Shown in pieces: positions 22,083 through 30,200 of a stretch of DNA of 32,509 bases. The stretch comes from a virus. A model generated the notes under the pieces. The model had not been told where the DNA came from, searched no databases, and saw only the letters and a program-made list of their open reading frames with translations. The position numbers and the translations under genes are program-made. The stretch lies in IMG/VR virus record IMGVR_UViG_3300045988_111917; one strand, written 5' to 3'. Each line of letters starts with the position of its first letter. Within the stretch, counting starts at the first letter, position 1.

Positions 22083-23531
22083 ATGCTGGTGAAGAATCCA
22101 AATTGGAGGGCGAACGTCCGTCCCACATCCGACGTGGCAATCATGGCCGCGGAATACGTGAACTGGGGTCGCGGAAACGCAATCCTCCCGTTCCAAGTCG
22201 AATTTCTCAACAACGCCTTCCAACGCAAGAAGGACGGCACTTGGAAATACAAGCGTGTCGCATTGAACATGCCGCGTCAGAACGGCAAGACCAAAATCCT
22301 CACCGCCCCAATACTCTTCTATCTGTTCGTGCTCGGACTGAACGTGCTCGTCACCGCGCATGAGCAGATTGCGGCCAACAAAATCATGGAGGATTTGAAA
22401 GACGCCATCGATTCGAATCCCGAACTGAAAGCCGAAGTCACGCATTTCAGTACCACCATGGGACGCGAGCGCCTACAGTTGAAGAACGGCGCGTTCGTCC
22501 GGTTCCGCTCCCGCAAGAGCGCTTCCGCAGGCATGGGCGGCACGTTCGATTTGGTTATCTTCGACGAGGCACAGGAACTCCGCTCCGAATACGAGGCGAT
22601 GATTACCAAGACGTTGAAGACGCGTCGCATGGCGATGATAATCTACACCGGCACGCCGTTCCTCCCCTCGTCCATCGGCGACACGTTCAACGTGTTCCTT
22701 GACAACGCCGAAAACGACGACATGGCGTATGCGGTGCGCTACGGCGTCGATGACGAGACGGCGGACATCGAGGATGAGCAGTTGTGGGCGCTCACCAACC
22801 CGCTCTATCCGGATGTGATTCCACGTGAAGCGTTCCTCACCGACGTGGCGATAGCCAAACAGGGCGGCGCGGACGGCCTCATCGACTTCCGTATCCAAGA
22901 CTTAGGCCTGTGGTGGGCGGACAGTATTCCTCCGGCAATCCCGATGGACTTGTGGGACAGCGCATACTCCGACCTCCAACATGACCGCGACACGCTCGTC
23001 TACGCGCTCACCTTCGACCCGACAACCAGCACCCTCGCCCTGTCCGTGGCTGCCAACACCGAAGAGGTCACGGTCGGCTCGCAGCATTACGACAAGTGGG
23101 CGTACATCATCGGCGAAATCGTGGACGAACGCCCCACCACCGAATCATGGCAGTGGGTGGTTGACGAGCTGAAGACGCGTCCACGCAAGACCACGCTCAT
23201 CTTGGACGCTGGCGGATTGAACAATCCGATAAGGGACATGCTTCCGCGTGGGTTGAACGTCATCCAATTGACCGGTACCGAGTTCCTCGCCTCGCAGCAG
23301 GGATTCCTCGACCTGCTGAACGAGGGACGGTTCAAACATACAAACAACCCGCAGCTGACCGCCGAAGTGCAGAACGCGCAGAAGCTCAAATCCGGTTCGG
23401 ATGACCAGTGGAAGTTCGCGCCGATACGCAAGACCGAAACCACGGCCGGTTTGAAGGGCGTCAGCATCGCCGCATGGTATCGCGGCGTTAACCGTCCGAA
23501 GGAACGCAAGGTCAGGGAGGTGATTGCCTGA
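22083..23531 (+). CDS. terL: Terminase large subunit
   Basis: Walker A MPRQNGKT, Walker B FDLVIFDEAQE, coupling motif YTGTP, and a C-terminal nuclease-size domain. 482 aa. Confidence 0.9.
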   Translation: MLVKNPNWRANVRPTSDVAIMAAEYVNWGRGNAILPFQVEFLNNAFQRKKDGTWKYKRVALNMPRQNGKTKILTAPILFYLFVLGLNVLVTAHEQIAANKIMEDLKDAIDSNPELKAEVTHFSTTMGRERLQLKNGAFVRFRSRKSASAGMGGTFDLVIFDEAQELRSEYEAMITKTLKTRRMAMIIYTGTPFLPSSIGDTFNVFLDNAENDDMAYAVRYGVDDETADIEDEQLWALTNPLYPDVIPREAFLTDVAIAKQGGADGLIDFRIQDLGLWWADSIPPAIPMDLWDSAYSDLQHDRDTLVYALTFDPTTSTLALSVAANTEEVTVGSQHYDKWAYIIGEIVDERPTTESWQWVVDELKTRPRKTTLILDAGGLNNPIRDMLPRGLNVIQLTGTEFLASQQGFLDLLNEGRFKHTNNPQLTAEVQNAQKLKSGSDDQWKFAPIRKTETTAGLKGVSIAAWYRGVNRPKERKVREVIA

Positions 23532-23815
23532 TGGGCAAGGATACGGGACTCTACCATCGGAATCGCGCCATCCTCCGCGAACGCACCAAACGGACTGGAG
23601 CGCCCTGCTATTATTGCGGCGCACCTTTCTACTGGGGCCGTAACACAGCGCATCCGTTGGCGTTCACCGCAGACCATGTGATACCGCGTGCCGCTGGTGG
23701 AAGCGACAGGATGGACAATCTCGTTCCGGCGCACATGCAATGCAATCGCGCCAAGTCTGACCATATAGCAAGTCCGGCGACACGCCGAACGCGAACTGCG
23801 ACGAGAAGGTGGTAG
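23531..23815 (+). CDS. HNH endonuclease (packaging-associated)
   Basis: CYYCG ... DHVIPRAAGGSDRMDNLVPAHMQCNRAKSD. The ATG overlaps the TerL stop. Confidence 0.9.
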   Translation: MGKDTGLYHRNRAILRERTKRTGAPCYYCGAPFYWGRNTAHPLAFTADHVIPRAAGGSDRMDNLVPAHMQCNRAKSDHIASPATRRTRTATRRW

Positions 23816-24149: not shown

Positions 24150-25193
24150 ATGTCCCTAGCGACAATCGAACTGAAGCCGGGCTTCGTTGACCGCAAGCTG
24201 ATTTCCAACCAGCCCGCGGCCGGAGCCATCGCAAGGATTTCCAACAGCACTCCAATCGACCTCATCGGCACGCAGATGCAGACCATCGACTTCTCCGGCG
24301 AAATGGGCATCTTCGGCGAAGGCGCCACCGGCGAAACCGACGCCGAAAAGAAGAAGAAGTCAAATGACGCCACCAACGGTGTCGTGACCATCAACCCAAT
24401 CACCTTCTATATCAGCTACCGTTTCCCGAAGAAGTTCCTTCAGCTGTTCGGCGTTGACGGCGCCTACAATCCGACCGACGCCACCTTCCGCGCCGGTTCG
24501 CCGCAGACCATGCTTCAGAGCATCCTCGCGCAGCCATATCAGGCCGGAATCCTCGACCAGTACCGCACGTATGTGAACCGTGCAATCAGCCGCGCACTCG
24601 ACTTCGCCCCCATCTTCGGCGTCAACCCGGCCACCAAGGCCGCGTCCACCGTCGCACGCACCAACGGATACGTGCTCGATCAGGCCGGAGACATCGACTA
24701 CACTCCGGGCACCGGAGCGGAAGCCGCCACCGCGTTCAAGCAGGCCGTGCGACAGGTCGCCGCACAGGGCGACGCGTCCGCGCAGGGCGTCACCACCTCC
24801 GCATACCTGGCTGCAATCGGCGATGGCCTCACCACCATCGGCACGCCGACCCAGTATGCCGCCGACGTTCCGCTCATCGGCAACATGGTCAACCTCGGCG
24901 GCGTCACCCTCGCAGCCTCCAACACCGTGTCCGACACCGCGGCGGCCACCGGCTCCGGCCAGCTGGGCGAGAAGGTGCTCGATGCGGTCATCGGCGACTT
25001 CGCCAACCGTTTCGTCTGGGGCGCCATCCCGCTGTCCGGCATCGAAGTGTTCGACTCCGGCAACCCGGACAATTCCACAGAAGGCGACTTGGGCGCAGTC
25101 AACAAGGTGATGCTCCGCACCGAAGTCGCAATCGGCTGGGGCTTCATCGGCGGGACCAGCAAGTTCTACGCCATCACCCACGCCACCGCGTGA
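24150..25193 (+). CDS. Major capsid protein (HK97 fold, no delta domain)
   Basis: 347 aa. Overall Phage_capsid-like pattern with C-terminal NKVMLRTEVAIGWGFIGG. Ala/Gly/Thr-rich and evidently highly expressed. Confidence 0.85.
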   Translation: MSLATIELKPGFVDRKLISNQPAAGAIARISNSTPIDLIGTQMQTIDFSGEMGIFGEGATGETDAEKKKKSNDATNGVVTINPITFYISYRFPKKFLQLFGVDGAYNPTDATFRAGSPQTMLQSILAQPYQAGILDQYRTYVNRAISRALDFAPIFGVNPATKAASTVARTNGYVLDQAGDIDYTPGTGAEAATAFKQAVRQVAAQGDASAQGVTTSAYLAAIGDGLTTIGTPTQYAADVPLIGNMVNLGGVTLAASNTVSDTAAATGSGQLGEKVLDAVIGDFANRFVWGAIPLSGIEVFDSGNPDNSTEGDLGAVNKVMLRTEVAIGWGFIGGTSKFYAITHATA

Positions 25194-25207
25194 CATTATT
25201 CGCACAC

Positions 25208-25231
25208 ATGGGCGGCGGCGACGCCGCCCAT
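25208..25231 (+). promoter_or_regulatory. Stable hairpin between the capsid and tail-tube genes (attenuator or mRNA stabiliser?)
   Basis: ATGGGCGGCG gcga CGCCGCCCAT: 10-bp stem, GNRA-type loop, no U tract. Confidence 0.4.
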
Positions 25232-25266
25232 CCACTGATTGAACGCTAACAACGAAAGGAATTGAG

Positions 25267-25863
25267 ATGGGCGCAAAGCAGTCTTCCGCAAACGTGACAT
25301 TCTCGAAGCCGGGTACTAGTGCCAACAAGTCCGGCTATATTTGGGTCGCCCCACTGGGCACCGCAATCCCCACCGACGCCACCTCCGAACTGGACGCGGC
25401 GTTCGTCGGCCTTGGCTATCTGTCCGAAGACGGTCTGACCGAACCGGCATCCCTCTCCGCGGGTGACGATATTGTGGCCGCCGGTGGCGATACGGTCGCA
25501 CAGGCTGACCCGACGTTCTCCAAGACGTGGACGGGTACTTGCATCGAAGCCCTGAACGAAGACCTGCTTAAGGTCGCATACGGCTCCGCCAACGTGACGG
25601 TCGAACAGGCATCCTCGTCAAAGGATGGCTCTATCACCGTCAAGGAACAGGCCAGCGAACTGGAGCATCACGTCATCGTCATCGACGAAATGTTGAAGGG
25701 CGGACGCAGGCGCCGTAACGTGATGGCGGACGCCACCTTCCTCATCACCGGCGACATCAGCCACGTGCATACGGCTCTCGTGAACTTCGAGTTCACCATC
25801 AACGCCTATCCGACCGCCACCGCTCCGGCTCAGACCCAGTACATCACCATCCCAAAAGCGTAA
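25267..25863 (+). CDS. Major tail (tail tube) protein
   Basis: 198 aa. YIWVAPLGTAIPTDA...GLGYLSEDGLT is typical of siphovirus tube proteins. Follows the capsid gene and precedes the chaperones. Confidence 0.85.
   Translation: MGAKQSSANVTFSKPGTSANKSGYIWVAPLGTAIPTDATSELDAAFVGLGYLSEDGLTEPASLSAGDDIVAAGGDTVAQADPTFSKTWTGTCIEALNEDLLKVAYGSANVTVEQASSSKDGSITVKEQASELEHHVIVIDEMLKGGRRRRNVMADATFLITGDISHVHTALVNFEFTINAYPTATAPAQTQYITIPKA
25851..25857 (+). promoter_or_regulatory. Candidate -1 programmed frameshift heptamer C CCA AAA at the end of the tail-tube gene
   Basis: X XXY YYZ in the correct phase, 4 nt before TAA. The -1 frame is open for 116 codons beyond it. Confidence 0.6.
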
Positions 25864-26207
25864 GCTCTCCAAATCCGACGCTGACAGTCACCGTATCCGA
25901 TGGTACGGTGGCTGAAGATGGTGCGATGTGGGTGGTCGGCGACTGGGGGCAAGCCTCGCCATGGTCACGCGATACCGGCGTGAAGATGGTCAAGGGCGAG
26001 AATGATGTCTATACTGGCGAACTTTCCCTTCCGAAGGGTACCAAGTTCGACATCAAGATCCTGAAGTCCACGGTCTCCACGACGAGCGGCGGCGATAATA
26101 CTTGGTCCGCGGTCGGGTATGCCAGCACTCTGAACACGTCCACTTCACATGGCTTTGGAGAGTTTACCGACAATCTGATTCCAAACGGCAACTTCGACGA
26201 AGGATAG
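25857..26207 (+). CDS. -1 frame C-terminal extension of the tail-tube protein: linker plus CBM20/25-like beta-sandwich
   Basis: SVSSPNPTLTVTVSDGTVAEDGAMWVVGDWGQASPW...VKMVKGENDVYTGELSLPKGTKFDIKILKS. In-frame starts (GTG 25908, ATG 25926) lack an SD and would truncate the first strand. Confidence 0.55.
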   Translation, partial: SVSSPNPTLTVTVSDGTVAEDGAMWVVGDWGQASPWSRDTGVKMVKGENDVYTGELSLPKGTKFDIKILKSTVSTTSGGDNTWSAVGYASTLNTSTSHGFGEFTDNLIPNGNFDEG

Positions 26208-26600
26208 GTGAAATGGACGCCGGCCGAAGCGATTAGAGAAGTTAGTAGTTCACAAAGTGGCAAAAATGTATTATCGCTCGGAGGTAATTCAGACATTACA
26301 TCATGTTCTTCTGATGTATTCACCATTCCACCGGGCCAGACATTGCGGTTCAGCGGGTATCTGCTTACTCATCATCCGCCTGTTAAGGGTGTTGTCGAGA
26401 TGAAGATTGTCACCCCTCAACAGCAAACACTGTTTGAGTTTAGCGTTAACGCTGGAGGTGACAGCACTTACCATCAGTTCAGTAAGACATTCAAGAGCAT
26501 GGATGTGCCAATTGACTGCCGGATTGTGTTGTCGAATGCTACCGTTGGTAAATGGTACGAACATGCGCTCTTCGATTCACTCTCGCTTGTCAGCCCGTAA
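26208..26600 (+). CDS. CBM_4_9 / galactose-binding-like jelly-roll module, same frame as 25857..26207, separated from it only by TAG
   Basis: VKWTPAEA...GKNVLSLGG...FTIPPGQTLRFSGYLLT...CRIVLSNATVGKWYEHALFDSLSLV. The opening NGNFDEG strand lies upstream of the TAG. GC is about 43 percent. Confidence 0.5.
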   Translation: MKWTPAEAIREVSSSQSGKNVLSLGGNSDITSCSSDVFTIPPGQTLRFSGYLLTHHPPVKGVVEMKIVTPQQQTLFEFSVNAGGDSTYHQFSKTFKSMDVPIDCRIVLSNATVGKWYEHALFDSLSLVSP

Positions 26601-26617
26601 TGTGATGACAGGGCACA

Positions 26618-26668
26618 CACCCCACGCCAAGACATAGTTATGCCCTTGGCGTGGGGTATCCTTATATA
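26618..26668 (+). terminator. Terminator-like hairpin closing the capsid/tail-tube unit
   Basis: ACCCCACGCCAAG (26618-26630) / CTTGGCGTGGGGT (26644-26656): 13-bp stem, 13-nt loop, then ATCCTTATATA. Confidence 0.55.
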
Positions 26669-26691
26669 GAAAGACAACGAAAGGAAATCCA

Positions 26692-26976
26692 ATGGCAAAA
26701 CGCAAGCCCACCATCACCGCAGAAGACTTCAACGACAATTGGGGCGACGCCTACGCGAAACTCCTCCGCAACCGAAAATTCCAACAGGCCATCCACTCCG
26801 AAAAAGTCGAAGACGGCGTGGAAACCATCTGGCTCGTAGACAAGCTCATGCGCGGCGTGCTGAAGGAAAACAAGTACGAAGCGGTTATGAACGCATTCGA
26901 CGATGACGTGCTCGACGCATGGGAATACCTCTCGGGAAAATTGCCAGCGCTTTTGGATTCACAGTCGAAAGACTGA
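26692..26976 (+). CDS. Tail assembly chaperone (gpG-like)
   Basis: 94 aa, immediately upstream of the TMP. Contains the slippery site near its 3' end. Confidence 0.8.
   Translation: MAKRKPTITAEDFNDNWGDAYAKLLRNRKFQQAIHSEKVEDGVETIWLVDKLMRGVLKENKYEAVMNAFDDDVLDAWEYLSGKLPALLDSQSKD
26934..26940 (+). promoter_or_regulatory. -1 programmed frameshift heptamer G GGA AAA (chaperone G/GT)
   Basis: Correct phase (TCG GGA AAA TTG). The -1 frame is open through to TAG 27279-27281, abutting the TMP start. Confidence 0.8.
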
Positions 26977-27281
26977 CCTACGCGATAAACCCCGACCAGT
27001 GGGACAGCCAAATCTTGGCCGATTTCGCAAGCCAATACGGCAGTCCCAAAAACTACACCATCATAGAGAGAGCCAAGCTCATAGGCACGTTCGGAGCGAC
27101 GGCACGACTCTTGGATATCATTCAACAGTCAACGCTCGCCCCCTACTCCGGCAAGGGCAGGAAACCGAAAAGCGTGTTGCCGGAAAACCGGAAGAACACC
27201 AAAACGGAGGATTATGAACTAGATTCGATGAACACCGAAGACATCAACAAGGCGTTGGGTCTTCACCGAAAGGAATGGTAG
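26940..27281 (+). CDS. Tail assembly chaperone, frameshifted extension (gpGT-like fusion 26692..26940 + 26940..27281)
   Basis: The -1 frame reads IASAFGFTVERLTYAINPDQW.... This is the conserved G/GT arrangement of long-tailed phages. Confidence 0.8.
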   Translation: MASAFGFTVERLTYAINPDQWDSQILADFASQYGSPKNYTIIERAKLIGTFGATARLLDIIQQSTLAPYSGKGRKPKSVLPENRKNTKTEDYELDSMNTEDINKALGLHRKEW

Positions 27282-30200
27282 ATGGCAAAGGGCAGCATCG
27301 CGACCGCATGGATACAAGTACTTCCATCGTTGGAAGGCTTGCATTCCGCACTTGTCAAAGCAAGCAAGGGCGCGGTGCTCACCCCCGCCATCAAACCCAA
27401 ACTGGCATCCGGCACAAGCCGACTCTTCGCATCGAACGGCTTGGGCATGTCCAAACTGTTTTCTGGCTCGTTCAATAAGAGCCTCAACCTGCAAGGCGGC
27501 GTGAAAAACGCGCTCAACAGCGTGTTCGCATCCTTTAGTTCCAGTGGATGGCGTTCCGCCAACGCTTTCGGCAAAGGCTTCGCGAACCTCGACCTCAACA
27601 AGTATCTGAATGCAGCAGCCGCCATCGCCGCTGTGGCATCGGTCGGCAAGGCCGTCAAAAACGTCACGTCCGACATCATCGAAATGGGCAACCAGTGGGG
27701 TCGGACCACCGCCATGCTGAAGAACGCGGTAGGCACCACCGGAGACTACACGGGCTCGCTCGAAATGTCGCTGAAATATGCGAACGAGGTCGGCGTCACC
27801 ACTGACGATTTCATCCAGTCGGCGGCACGTCTTCGCACGCTCGCGCCGGAAGTCGTGACCAATTACGGTGACGCGGCGAAATTCACCAAACTGCTCGACA
27901 TGAACATGGTCAGCACCGGCGCGTCCACGCAGGAAGCGTCCAGTGCCATGCGGCAGATTACCCAAGCATTGGGCAAGGGCATCGTCAACGGCGATGAGCT
28001 GAATTCCATCATGGAGAACTCGCCGCAAATCGCACGAATGCTCGCCAAGCATCTCAACGCTTCCGTAGGCGACCTGAAACAGTTGGGCAAGGAAGGCTCC
28101 ATCAGCGGCCAAGCCCTCTACGATACGGTGCTTGAAAACGCCGACGCCATCGAAAAGCAGTTCCACGCCATGCCCGTCACGGCAGACCGCGCATGGAACA
28201 GCATCAAGAACACGGTCGGCGCAAGGTCGGCGGAAGCCACAACCGCATTATCCACTAACCTTGGTAAAGCGTTGACCGCCATCTCCAATTCGGGCATGAC
28301 GGACACGTTCGGCGAAATGCTCGCAGGATTCGTGCCATTGTCGAACGCGGCCGCTAAGTTGGCGACGACGTTCGTCAACCAGATTGCGCCAGCCGTCAAC
28401 AATGCGTTCAACGTGCAGCGGGTCGAACAGTTCCTCGCCCCATTGACGAATCTCATCAGCCTGAACTCGCAGAACGTCAACCTGCTATCCTCCTTGGCCG
28501 ATATGCTGAACACGGTGGGCGTCATCGGCGCCACCGCGTTCTCCCTCATGGTCGCCACGAACGACCGGTTCGCATCCCGTATCCCGTTCATCGGCCGCGC
28601 GCTGGTCGGCGTGAAGAACACGCTCGTCGGGCTTGGTTCCAGATTCACTGACGTGTTCGGAGCGGCGGTGTCCGCATCGTCAGCAGTCATCGACAAGCTC
28701 GCGTCCATGGCTGACGCGATGGCGAAAACGCTGTCAGAATCAACGAAAGCGCAGAACGCGCTCGGCAAGTTCAATGTCGCGTTCGAAGACTTGGGGACGT
28801 ACGCGTTCAGCTTCGGTGAGAAAGGCGCTGAAGGCTTCGAACTCATCCAGCAGGCCGCGACCAACCTGCGCAATGGTGTGGGACAGGCGTCCGAGAATGT
28901 GAAGCTGCTCCAAACCGGTTTGAACGCGATGGGAGCCGATGCGGAAGCGCTTCCCGAAGCGTTCCTCAAAGCGTTCGAAACCCTCAACACCGAAGTGGAT
29001 GCCGCCGCGCGGAAGAAGGCCCCATCCCTCATCCAAGCGTTCCATGACATTCGCGCCGCCGCCGACACCATCGTAGTGGATTCCGGCATCTACCGTTCAT
29101 TGGACACGGCCGGACAGAGCGCGGACATCTACCGTGACAAGCTCGTGCAGGTCGGACGCGAGTTCAAAGACCTCACCGGCCTGAACATTCCAGACATGTT
29201 CCTCCCATTGGTCGGCTCCGCCGTGTCCGCGTCCGACAGCATCATGCAGACGTTCGGCAACCTGAAGGCCGGATTGTCCAACTATGCCGCGAACACGGCG
29301 CAGCAGTGGGCGCCGGTCAAGGAGATTCTCGCCGAAGCATTCTCAAACGCCGCAGCATCCGTCAAAACGAAGATGGAGGCCATGTGTGCCGCCGTCGAAT
29401 CCGGCGCACTCTCCATGGTCGAGAACGTGAAGGGCTGGGCGTCCGAGTTCAAGACGGCGTTCGACGAAATGCTGGACACGAGCGGCATCAGCGACACCAT
29501 GTCAAAGCTCGGGACTGCGGTAGGCAATGGGCTTTCCACTGTCAAGGGCGCGCTCAAGTCGTTTGGCTCCGAAGCGGCGTCCACGTTGTCTGAGCCGTTC
29601 GACGGTCTTGCTGAAAAGATTTTCGGCTCGTTCAAAGGGCGGAATCCGTTCGCGCCGTTGACGTCCGCAGCTAAGACTGTGAGCGCCGGACTCTCGGCCA
29701 CGGTCGGCGGCGCCGTGTCGCGTCTTGCCGGACGGTTCAGCCCGTTGGCGTCCGCCGGAAAGGCAGCCTTCGCCACCATCGGCTCCGCCGCGTTGAAGGT
29801 GTCTTCCGGCGCGTTGAAGGGATTCGGCGCGGCCGTGAATGGAGTCGGCGCGGCAATCGGCAAGATTGGCGGCATCGCATCCCAGTTGGGCGTGACCGGC
29901 GCATTGTTCGCCGGCCTGACCACCGGATTCCAGACACTGTTCAAACTCGACCCGTCCCAGATGGTCGGCAAGTTCGACGAATGGCAGAAAAGCCTCGACA
30001 ACACGCTTACCGGCATCCAGACGAAACTGCCCGCCATGGCGAACGCGTTCGCTGCCGCCCTACCGCAGATGGAGGCGAGCGTCACCGCCGCACTGCCGGG
30101 CATCGCCAACGCGCTCATGAGCGTCGGACAGACGCTCGCACCCGCGTTGATGACGATACTGCCGCAAATCACCCAAGCGTTCTCCGACGTGTTCGCCCAG

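What the first reader, a model, noticed from the sequence alone, without database searches (positions are those of the whole stretch)
26160..26600. In-frame amber codon inside a carbohydrate-binding jelly-roll domain at the end of the tail-tube extension
ORFs 25908..26207 and 26208..26600 share one frame and are separated only by TAG 26205-26207. The peptide across the stop reads ...FTDNLIPNGNFDEG-[TAG]-VKWTPAEAIREVSSSQSGKNVLSLGG...FTIPPGQTLRFSGYLLT...CRIVLSNATVGKWYEHALFDSLSLVSP.

Three elements appear in the order typical of CBM_4_9 / galactose-binding-like jelly rolls: an opening NG.F(E/D).G...W strand, a central V.PG.T..xSG strand, and a closing (F/Y)D.hSL strand. The stop therefore falls between the first strand and the conserved Trp of one fold, not between two genes.

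GTG 26208 has no usable Shine-Dalgarno; the nearest GGA ends 3 nt upstream. TAG acts as a genuine stop elsewhere in this genome (1605, 2992, 4186, 23813, 27279), so genome-wide recoding is unlikely.

The remaining options are local: programmed or suppressor-dependent read-through making a rare long isoform, termination-reinitiation, or a very recent nonsense mutation. Together with the upstream -1 frameshift, one locus could yield three nested tail-tube isoforms of 198, about 313 and about 444 aa. That would be a graded glycan-binding decoration of the tail tube.
Basis: partly seen in the sequence, partly recalled or inferred. Interest (0 to 1): 0.8.

Follow-up and report, generated by a model that had tools for sequence, protein, structure and literature searches.

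The report
Nonsense mutation truncating a tail-tube decoration
The in-frame TAG is real and does sit inside one sugar-binding domain, but it is an ordinary Gln-to-stop mutation rather than a programmed read-through signal. It is one of many independent recent knock-outs of the optional sugar-binding extension that this family of gut Bifidobacterium phages adds to its tail tube by ribosomal frameshifting.

Summary
TAG 26205-26207 separates two same-frame ORFs and lies inside one CBM_4_9-type jelly roll, just after its first-strand motif NLIPNGNFDEG.

The window is a complete 32.5-kb Bifidobacterium siphophage genome. Its tail-tube gene ends in a conserved -1 slippery heptamer, C.CCA.AAA. The -1 frame encodes a CBM20 starch-binding-like domain followed by the CBM_4_9-like domain.

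In the three sequence-distinct cultured relatives examined, and in the closest metagenomic relatives, this is one uninterrupted ORF. The nearest relatives carry CAG (Gln) where the window has TAG, a single C-to-T change.

The stop is not conserved. Other relatives carry TAG, TGA or TAA at other Gln or Trp codons, or short-homopolymer frameshifts or deletions. Of 53 relatives, 28 have a broken extension. About 50,000 codons of flanking capsid, tail-tube, chaperone and tape-measure genes in the same contigs have none.

The window has no suppressor tRNA, no RNA structure after the stop, no recoding and no DGR.

Verdict: this is a recent nonsense allele that leaves products of 198 and about 313 aa. 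The proposed third isoform of about 444 aa is not supported.

The moderately interesting part is the family-wide pattern. Truncations recur and persist almost only at the start of a domain.

The parts
25267..25863 (+). Major tail (tail-tube) protein gene, 198 aa, stop TAA
   Evidence: Pfam Phage_TTP_17 (E 1.1e-9) and PHROG 117 'major tail protein' (E 1.6e-35). The gene is intact in all 61 related loci examined.
25850..25856 (+). -1 slippery heptamer C.CCA.AAA, in X.XXY.YYZ phase, 2 codons before the tail-tube stop
   Evidence: Read directly from the sequence. It is conserved at the same place in almost all relatives. The exception is L049, which has CCACAAAA.
25885..25914 (+). Conserved hairpin about 29 nt downstream of the heptamer (possible frameshift stimulator; function inferred)
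   Evidence: 13-bp stem in the window. The consensus stem is kept in 22 relatives, with an AU-to-CG double change at one pair in 7 of them.
25854..26153 (+). -1 frame extension, proximal domain: CBM20 (starch-binding-domain-like) beta-sandwich
   Evidence: Pfam CBM_20 scores 23.4 bits against a cut-off of 23.3. In the AlphaFold model, strand 1 is TLTVTVS, upstream of any start codon. Almost all Foldseek PDB hits are CBM20 domains: 7czj, 1cqy (TMt 0.70), 8x8k and CGTases. dN/dS is 0-0.19 in the -1 frame.
26172..26204 (+). NLIPNGNFDEG: the N-terminal first-strand motif of the distal CBM_4_9-like jelly roll, left stranded upstream of the stop
   Evidence: The Pfam CBM_4_9 match in relatives begins here, at profile position 2, as do the PDB alignments. 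In the model of the window's truncated product this stretch has pLDDT below 50, meaning disordered.
26205..26207 (+). Amber codon TAG: a Gln(CAG)-to-stop nonsense substitution
   Evidence: The closest relatives L010-L016 and P0001-P0003 have CAG/Q here. Three sequence-distinct cultured phages examined have ACG, GCG or GTG.
26208..26600 (+). Remaining 130 codons of the CBM_4_9-like domain plus TAA. Still intact, but no longer joined to the tail-tube protein.
   Evidence: It is 92-95% identical to the intact domains of L010-L012 and has no further lesion. The fold is assigned from a 92%-identical relative.
26619..26657 (+). Strong intergenic hairpin between the extension and the tail-assembly-chaperone gene (role unknown)
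   Evidence: MFE -31.1 kcal/mol, z = -4.3, and 0 of 200 shuffles fold as well. It was not called a terminator because there is no T-run.

Best explanation
The window is a Bifidobacterium siphophage genome. Its tail-tube gene carries a -1 programmed-frameshift extension, which fuses two carbohydrate-binding modules to a minority of tail-tube subunits. The first module is CBM20-like and the second is CBM_4_9-like.

In this genome, codon 118 of the extension has mutated from CAG (Gln) to TAG. The frameshift product therefore stops after the CBM20 domain plus a dangling first strand, at about 313 aa. The distal jelly roll is no longer made.

The allele is young. The 130 downstream codons are still intact.

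It is one instance of a recurrent process. In this phage family the accessory extension is repeatedly and independently knocked out by nonsense, frameshift or deletion mutations. The alleles that persist are almost only those that cut at the head of a domain. This probably reflects that a half-made beta-sandwich on the tail tube is harmful, whereas a cleanly missing one is tolerated or sometimes favoured.

Shown: the sequence facts, the comparison with relatives and the fold assignments.

Inferred: that the frameshift is used, the direction and recency of the mutation, and the selective explanation.
For: - Identity of the window: about 86% nucleotide identity over the genome to eight cultured Bifidobacterium phages.
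- Three sequence-distinct cultured relatives examined have one uninterrupted -1 frame ORF through both domains.
- 51 IMG/VR relatives were fetched. The nearest, L010-L016 at 78-95% identity, read NFDEG-Q-VKW with CAG.
- 120 top database homologues are nearly all continuous ORFs of 219-232 aa.
- Independent stops elsewhere in the extension:
  - TAG at Q118 in a different distal-domain variant (L026/L062) and in P0133.
  - TAG or TGA at W121 (L012, L024, L027, L029).
  - TAA at Q134 (L010, P0128, P0132).
  - TGA at about codon 117 (L032).
  - TAG at Q162 (L061, L065).
  - TAG or TGA at W26 and W31 (L014, L025, L048, L051).
- +1 insertions in short homopolymers and two deletions are also present.
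- 28 of 53 extensions are broken. In contrast there are 0 stops and 0 frame changes in about 50,000 codons of MCP, TTP, TAC and TMP in the same loci.
- Within the distal domain, 8 of 9 transition-type nonsense lineages fall in codons 106-154, which hold only about 25% of the transition-to-stop opportunities. My binomial calculation from these counts gives P of about 1e-4.
- All 10 distal indel or deletion lesions start in codons 105-154.
- There is no tRNA, no Rfam hit, no significant structure after the TAG (z -0.87 and +1.5) and no TR-like repeat. TAG ends about 14 other ORFs.
- The same truncated 93-aa product is on record from NCBI, ENA and Logan on 3 contigs. The TAG is therefore not a one-pipeline artefact.
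- Precedent: four independent premature stops truncate the accessory neck-passage decoration in lactococcal 936 phages (PMC5913663).
Against: - There are no reads, proteomics or host genome, so low-level read-through or a host amber suppressor cannot be excluded.
- The TAG at the same codon in two or three different backgrounds could in principle reflect something site-specific rather than coincidence. However, this codon is one of only about three transition-accessible nonsense sites in that stretch.
- Use of the -1 frameshift is inferred, not demonstrated. The hairpin spacer of about 28 nt is longer than the usual 5-9 nt.
- dN/dS in the distal domain of the window's clade is 0.3-1.0 on small counts. 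Constraint on that domain is therefore weak or diversifying, and 'recent' rests mainly on the absence of secondary lesions.
Confidence: 0.85

Rival explanations
1. Programmed or suppressor-dependent read-through of TAG 26205 makes a rare isoform of about 444 aa, giving three nested tail-tube isoforms.
For: The downstream 130 codons are fully intact and in frame. TAG occurs at the same codon in a second, divergent distal-domain variant, L026/L062, and in P0133.
Against: - The stop is not conserved. The closest relatives have CAG and others have sense codons.
- Equivalent lesions use TAA and TGA at other codons. Some are frameshifts or deletions, which read-through cannot rescue.
- There is no stimulatory RNA structure, no phage tRNA, and TAG is a normal stop for about 14 other ORFs.
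- Basal amber read-through multiplied by the frameshift frequency would give far less than one long subunit per virion. This is my own estimate from general knowledge.
Confidence: 0.05
2. Termination-reinitiation: ribosomes that stop at TAG restart at the adjacent GTG 26208 and make a free 130-aa protein.
For: The stop and GTG are adjacent (TAGGTG), and a GAAGGA lies just upstream.
Against: - GTG is the conserved Val codon of VKW (GTG, GTA or GCG in relatives). GAAGGA encodes the conserved Glu-Gly in genomes without any stop, so neither has evolved as a start signal.
- The product would lack strand 1 of its fold and any link to the virion.
- Only the minority of ribosomes that have frameshifted reach this site.
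- Relatives with stops at W121, Q134 or Q162 have no adjacent start codon.
- No gene caller in the public collections recorded this 130-aa product.
Confidence: 0.04
3. Sequencing or assembly error: the real phage has CAG at this codon.
For: It is a single-base difference from the nearest relatives, in a metagenome-derived contig.
Against: - An identical truncated product is recorded from NCBI, ENA and Logan on three contigs as well as in the JGI record.
- Lesions are confined to the extension. There are none in about 50,000 flanking codons of the same contigs, which random error would not produce.
Confidence: 0.04

Closest known systems
TpeX, the major-tail-protein extension of lactococcal 936-group (Skunavirus) phages (PMC4759559, PMC6669499)
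   Same: It is an accessory carbohydrate-binding module fused to a fraction of tail-tube subunits by programmed frameshifting at the end of the tail-tube gene. It is variable between phages and present in only some of them. Its host-specific binding has been shown experimentally.
   Different: TpeX uses a +1 shift at CCC.UAG and a BppA-like CBM. Here the shift is -1 at C.CCA.AAA and there are two modules in tandem, CBM20-like and CBM_4_9-like. The host is Bifidobacterium. No experimental data exist for this family.
SPP1 gp17.1* and lambda gpV C-terminal Ig-like or FN3-like tail-tube decorations (cited in PMC6669499; that they are dispensable in the laboratory is from my own knowledge)
   Same: These are optional domains displayed along the tail tube. 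In SPP1 the domain is added by a frameshift right after the tube-forming core, as it is here.
   Different: Those are single Ig-like or FN3-like adhesin domains, not CBM20 plus a CBM_4_9 jelly roll.
Independent premature-stop truncations of the neck passage structure (NPS) in 936 phages (Kupczok et al. 2018, PMC5913663)
   Same: Several independent nonsense substitutions in closely related phages truncate an accessory, CBM-bearing virion decoration, while the core structural genes stay intact.
   Different: NPS is a separate gene rather than a frameshift extension. Four events were seen in one dairy culture lineage. Here there are more than 20 distinct lesions across gut metagenomes, with a marked preference for the start of a domain.
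Programmed stop-codon read-through (e.g. Qbeta A1 read-through of UGA; my own knowledge)
   Same: An in-frame stop is followed by an open, foldable extension of a structural protein.
   Different: In programmed cases the stop and its context are conserved. Here the stop is absent from the nearest relatives and is replaced elsewhere by other lesions.
TAG-to-Gln stop-codon recoding in gut phages (crAss-like and Lak phages; my own knowledge)
   Same: It involves a gut phage with a TAG at a Gln position in a late structural gene.
   Different: Recoded phages carry many in-frame TAGs and a suppressor tRNA. Here there is one TAG and no tRNA, and TAG terminates about 14 ordinary ORFs.

Membership tests
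CBM_4_9 (Pfam PF02018; CBM4/9/16/22 beta-jelly-roll) | Significant match to the family profile | tested here: inconclusive
   The window's own sequence gives no hit, with or without the stop replaced. Among 25 intact relatives of the same domain, 18 match, with best E 3.3e-8. The nearest relative, L011, reaches only 14.3 bits against a cut-off of 25.9.
CBM_4_9 (Pfam PF02018; CBM4/9/16/22 beta-jelly-roll) | Jelly-roll fold superimposable on solved members | tested here: met
   The model of the 92%-identical P0001 has pLDDT 77-94 over the domain. Foldseek matches CBM16 2zew/2zex, CBM4-2 1k42/2y64, CBM61 2xom and 8xmz, with E 4e-8 to 1e-5 and TMt 0.6-0.71.
CBM_4_9 (Pfam PF02018; CBM4/9/16/22 beta-jelly-roll) | N-terminal N-x-x-x-N-G-x-F-E-x-G...W motif belongs to the domain, so the TAG is internal | tested here: met
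   The Pfam match starts at profile position 2 on NLVPNG. HMM alignments to 4q8k, 9h9a and 8xmz start on the same motif.
CBM_4_9 (Pfam PF02018; CBM4/9/16/22 beta-jelly-roll) | Binds a carbohydrate ligand | not testable with these tools
   This needs binding assays.
CBM20 starch-binding domain (Pfam PF00686) | Profile match at or above the gathering score, and a CBM20 fold | tested here: met
   The score is 23.4 bits against a cut-off of 23.3, which is marginal. The Foldseek top hits, about 45, are almost all CBM20 domains. The model confidence is only moderate (mean pLDDT 65).
Programmed-frameshift tail-tube extension (TpeX / SPP1 gp17.1* type) | Slippery site in phase at the 3' end of the tail-tube gene, with an overlapping ORF that has no start of its own and begins a folded domain | tested here: met
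   C.CCA.AAA is conserved. The -1 frame is open from 25719. CBM20 strand 1 lies upstream of the first ATG or GTG. dN/dS is about 0.1 in the -1 frame.
Programmed-frameshift tail-tube extension (TpeX / SPP1 gp17.1* type) | Two products (short and fused) present in virions | not testable with these tools
   This needs a western blot or mass spectrometry.
Programmed stop-codon read-through | The stop codon and its context are conserved among relatives | tested here: not met
   The closest relatives have CAG and others have GCG, GTG, ACG, AAG and more.
Programmed stop-codon read-through | Stimulatory downstream RNA structure, or a dedicated suppressor tRNA | tested here: not met
   Fold z-scores are -0.87 and +1.5. 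No tRNA was found in the window and there were no Rfam hits. The host genome is not available.
Genome-wide TAG reassignment (code 15-like recoded gut phages) | Many in-frame TAGs in late genes, a suppressor tRNA, and TAG not used as a terminator | tested here: not met
   There is one in-frame TAG. TAG ends about 14 other ORFs. No tRNA was found.
Diversity-generating retroelement target (variable C-terminal ligand-binding domain) | A template repeat elsewhere in the genome matching the variable region | tested here: not met
   A self-BLAST of 25854-26600 against the window gives only chance matches of 12-27 nt.

The most novel reading that the evidence does not exclude
The recurrent, position-restricted truncations may not be mere decay. 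They could be an adaptive and partly reversible population-level switch: single transitions such as CAG<->TAG and TGG<->TAG/TGA, plus homopolymer +/-1 slips. The switch would set how many carbohydrate-binding modules the tail tube displays: none, CBM20 only, or CBM20 plus CBM_4_9. That in turn would trade adherence to starch or host glycans against free diffusion or escape from decoys in the gut. A weaker form of the same reading is that the window's TAG is slightly leaky in its natural host, so a trace of the long isoform persists.
Probability: 0.15. Interest if true: 0.65.

Novelty: new member of a known kind. Interest (0 to 1): 0.35.

Why it matters
For annotation, 25908..26207 and 26208..26600 should not be called as two genes, nor as a read-through gene. 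They are the two halves of a frameshift extension of the tail-tube gene, interrupted by a nonsense allele.

Biologically, this family shows an accessory adhesin module being lost again and again in nature while the essential genes next to it stay intact. The rule appears to be that only truncations at the head of a domain survive.

The family also puts a starch-binding-type module (CBM20) on the tail of phages whose cultured relatives infect B. adolescentis and B. pseudocatenulatum. This suggests a testable idea: that the phage adheres to the substrate or surface glycans where its hosts sit.

Tried and rejected
- Pfam and PHROG scans of the window's 130-aa ORF alone gave no hit. Relatives were needed for an assignment.
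- The exact 17-mer search in IMG/VR gave six loci. Five of them (L004, L006-L009) were unrelated chance matches.
- The scan of 185,579 species-representative genomes found no relative. There is therefore no evidence for a prophage or a bacterial donor.
A 92%-identical intact relative was used instead.
- Exact-product look-ups for the 130-aa ORF and for P0121 returned no contigs.
- TAG recoding was rejected.
- A DGR was rejected.
- A read-through stimulator RNA was rejected.
- An internal promoter for 26208..26600 was not supported. There were only two weak consensus matches in 25200-26800, against 0.9 expected.
- No paper mentioning the cultured relatives by name (BA720P3) is in the library. 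Nothing was found on phage tail CBM20 domains.
- A methylation-type hotspot motif shared by the mutated sites was looked for by eye in the contexts. None was seen.

Full report
**Observation**

ORFs 25908..26207 and 26208..26600 share one frame and are separated only by TAG 26205-26207. That frame is open from 25719.

The window is a complete siphophage genome of about 32.5 kb. It is about 86% identical at the nucleotide level to eight cultured Bifidobacterium adolescentis and B. pseudocatenulatum phages (BA720P3, BA746P1, BP742P1, BP677P1-8). It corresponds to a 32,509-nt JGI/IMG record (P0125).

The gene order around the finding is:
- terminase, 22083-23531
- HNH, 23531-23815
- major capsid protein, 24150-25193
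- tail-tube protein, 25267-25863 (Pfam Phage_TTP_17, PHROG 117)
- the two ORFs in question
- tail-assembly chaperones with their own G.GGA.AAA frameshift, 26692-27281
- tape measure, from 27282

**What the two ORFs are**

The tail-tube gene ends ..ATC CCA AAA GCG TAA. The heptamer C.CCA.AAA (25850-25856) is a canonical -1 slippery site in the correct phase, and it is conserved in essentially all relatives.

After a -1 slip the reading continues K-S-V-S-S-P-N-P-T-L-T-V-T-V.. with no start codon of its own. Several results show this frame is a real coding frame entered by frameshifting:
- The stretch is conserved at the protein level.
- dN/dS in the -1 frame is 0-0.19.
- In an AlphaFold model of the window's own 117-residue extension, TLTVTVS is the first beta-strand of the domain.

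A hairpin about 29 nt downstream is conserved, with one compensatory pair. Its role is inferred.

The proximal domain is CBM20-like. Pfam gives 23.4 bits against a cut-off of 23.3, and almost all Foldseek PDB hits are starch-binding CBM20 domains.

The distal domain is a CBM_4_9-type jelly roll:
- 18 of 25 intact relatives hit PF02018, with best E 3.3e-8.
- A confident model of a 92%-identical relative (pLDDT 77-94) superimposes on CBM16, CBM4 and CBM61 modules.
- Third-party names in nr, 'endo-1,4-beta-xylanase Y' and 'endoglucanase binding module', point the same way.

**Is the stop programmed?**

No. The evidence from relatives is as follows:
- In the three sequence-distinct cultured relatives examined, the -1 frame is one uninterrupted ORF through both domains. 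The window's TAG aligns with ACG, GCG or GTG.
- Among 51 IMG/VR relatives, those closest to the window's distal-domain variant (L010-L016) read NFDEG-Q-VKW with CAG. TAG is thus one C-to-T transition from the neighbouring state.
- The top 120 of 365 database homologues are nearly all continuous ORFs of 219-232 aa.

The window itself offers nothing to support read-through:
- There is no tRNA gene and no Rfam match.
- There is no significant RNA structure after the stop (z -0.87 and +1.5).
- There is no template-repeat copy that would indicate a DGR.
- TAG terminates about 14 other ORFs.

GTG 26208 is the conserved Val of VKW. The upstream GAAGGA encodes the conserved Glu-Gly in genomes that have no stop. 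There is therefore no evolved restart signal either.

**The wider pattern**

The same extension is broken in many relatives, in different ways. A frameshift-aware alignment of each broken copy to its nearest intact relative (contexts) shows the following. Codons are numbered from the Lys after the slip site.
- Stops in the distal domain:
  - TGA at about codon 117 (L032).
  - TAG at Q118 (window; L026/L062 in a very different distal-domain variant; P0133).
  - TAG at W121 (L012, L024) and TGA at W121 (L027, L029).
  - TAA at Q134 (L010, P0128, P0132).
  - TAG at Q162 (L061, L065, L017, L035).
- Stops at W26 or W31 of the CBM20 domain (L014, L025, L048, L051).
- +1 insertions in short homopolymers (L017, L035, L036, L039, L042, L045, L047, L055, L056).
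- Other frame changes equivalent to 1-nt deletions (L016, L030, L036, L058).
- Two internal deletions (L034, L049).
- One heavily decayed copy with eight lesions (L059).

All three stop codons are used, which excludes a codon-specific recoding mechanism.

Of 53 extensions, 28 are broken and 25 are intact. Six further ENA contigs, which were found through a search pattern restricted to the window's own junction sequence, are all broken.

In the same loci, about 50,000 aligned codons of capsid, tail-tube, chaperone and tape-measure genes contain no stop and no frame change. The lesions are therefore real and specific to the extension, not assembly noise.

The window's own truncated 93-aa product is also recorded from NCBI, ENA and Logan on three contigs.

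**Where lesions fall**

Single or first lesions cluster at the head of each domain, in codons 1-40 and 105-162. None starts at 41-104 or after 162.

Within the distal domain, 8 of 9 transition-type nonsense lineages lie in codons 106-154. That stretch holds only about a quarter of the transition-to-stop opportunities. My binomial calculation from those counts gives P of about 1e-4. All ten distal indel or deletion lesions also start in codons 105-154.

In the CBM20 domain the nonsense sites simply follow the Trp codons, so there is no excess there. The frameshifts, however, again all lie in the first 40 codons.

My inference is that a partly made beta-sandwich on a tail-tube subunit is harmful, so only clean removals persist.

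Base composition agrees with an accessory, weakly expressed and fast-evolving segment. GC3 falls from 75% in the tail-tube gene to 63-66% in CBM20 and 49-54% in the distal domain, across the whole family. The low GC at 26100-26700 is thus a family trait, not a sign of recent import into the window.

**Mechanism and consequence**

The window's phage should make the 198-aa tube protein and, after frameshifting, a product of about 313 aa. That product carries CBM20 plus a disordered NLIPNGNFDEG tail (pLDDT below 50). The form of about 444 aa seen in intact relatives is lost.

With no suppressor, amber read-through multiplied by the frameshift frequency would give far less than one long subunit per virion. 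This is my estimate from general knowledge, not a measurement.

The intact 130 downstream codons are explained by the youth of the allele, not by continued expression. Older broken copies do accumulate secondary lesions (L017, L035, L059).

**Comparison with known systems**

The architecture is a new member of a known kind: tail-tube decorations added by programmed frameshifting.
- Lactococcal 936 phages make TpeX by a +1 shift at CCC.UAG. It carries a BppA-like CBM with demonstrated host-specific binding (PMC4759559, PMC6669499).
- SPP1 adds an adhesin domain by frameshift directly after the tube core (cited in PMC6669499).

Here the shift is -1 and the cargo is CBM20 plus CBM_4_9.

Recurrent independent premature stops in an accessory CBM-bearing decoration also have a precedent, in the NPS of 936 phages (PMC5913663).

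The scale of the pattern and its preference for domain starts were not found in the literature searched. That search was not exhaustive.

**Verdict**

The fold argument is confirmed. The read-through and three-isoform interpretation is not supported. The 'recent nonsense mutation' option is strongly supported, with confidence of about 0.85.

Interest is modest for the TAG itself. It is somewhat higher for the family-wide pattern of convergent, cleanly placed truncations, and for the presence of a starch-binding-type module on the tail of phages related to cultured B. adolescentis and B. pseudocatenulatum phages.

Noticed in passing
window 25850-25856 and 25885-25914: A canonical -1 slippery heptamer, C.CCA.AAA, sits two codons before the tail-tube stop and is conserved in about 50 relatives. 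A conserved hairpin lies about 29 nt downstream, with an AU-to-CG compensatory change at one pair in 7 of 22 sequences. The spacer is longer than is usual for a -1 frameshift stimulator.
   Followed up: partly
window 26619-26657: A strong 13-bp GC-rich hairpin (z = -4.3) lies in the 91-nt gap between the extension's TAA and the chaperone gene. It has no T-run, so it was not called a terminator. The same sequence motif is visible after the stop in most relatives. Its role is unknown.
   Followed up: partly
window 26934-26940 (ORFs 26692-26976 and 26919-27281): This is the standard tail-assembly-chaperone -1 frameshift: G.GGA.AAA in phase, with the -1 frame ORF ending in TAG directly before the tape-measure ATG at 27282.
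   Followed up: no
L010-L066 versus window 25854-26600: About half of all related genomes carry a broken extension, through nonsense, homopolymer +1, deletion or multi-lesion decay. About 50,000 flanking structural-gene codons carry no lesion. First lesions occur almost only in the first third of each of the two domains.
   Followed up: yes
L031 2496-2512; L049 2490-2510: L031 has a 1-nt insertion right after the tail-tube TAA (GCGTAAAGC). This places the whole extension in the zero frame behind the stop, so a -1 slip would no longer reach it. L049 has lost the slippery site (CCACAAAA) and also carries an internal deletion of the distal domain.
   Followed up: partly
window 25267-26600 and the same region of 25 intact relatives: There is a family-wide GC3 gradient: tail-tube gene about 75%, CBM20 about 63%, distal domain about 49-54%. 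The low-GC island at 26100-26700 is a shared property of the extension, not a recent import in this genome.
   Followed up: yes
window 25878-26153: The proximal domain on the tail tube is a CBM20 starch-binding-type module. Its conserved Trp codons (MWVVGDWGQ..PW) are the ones hit by stops in L014, L025, L048 and L051. No literature on CBM20 on phage tails was found. The hosts of the cultured relatives are B. adolescentis and B. pseudocatenulatum.
   Followed up: partly
Genome-contig scan: No relative of the extension was found in one-genome-per-species representatives of 185,579 bacterial and archaeal species. The module was therefore not traced to a prophage or to a bacterial glycoside hydrolase.
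   Followed up: no
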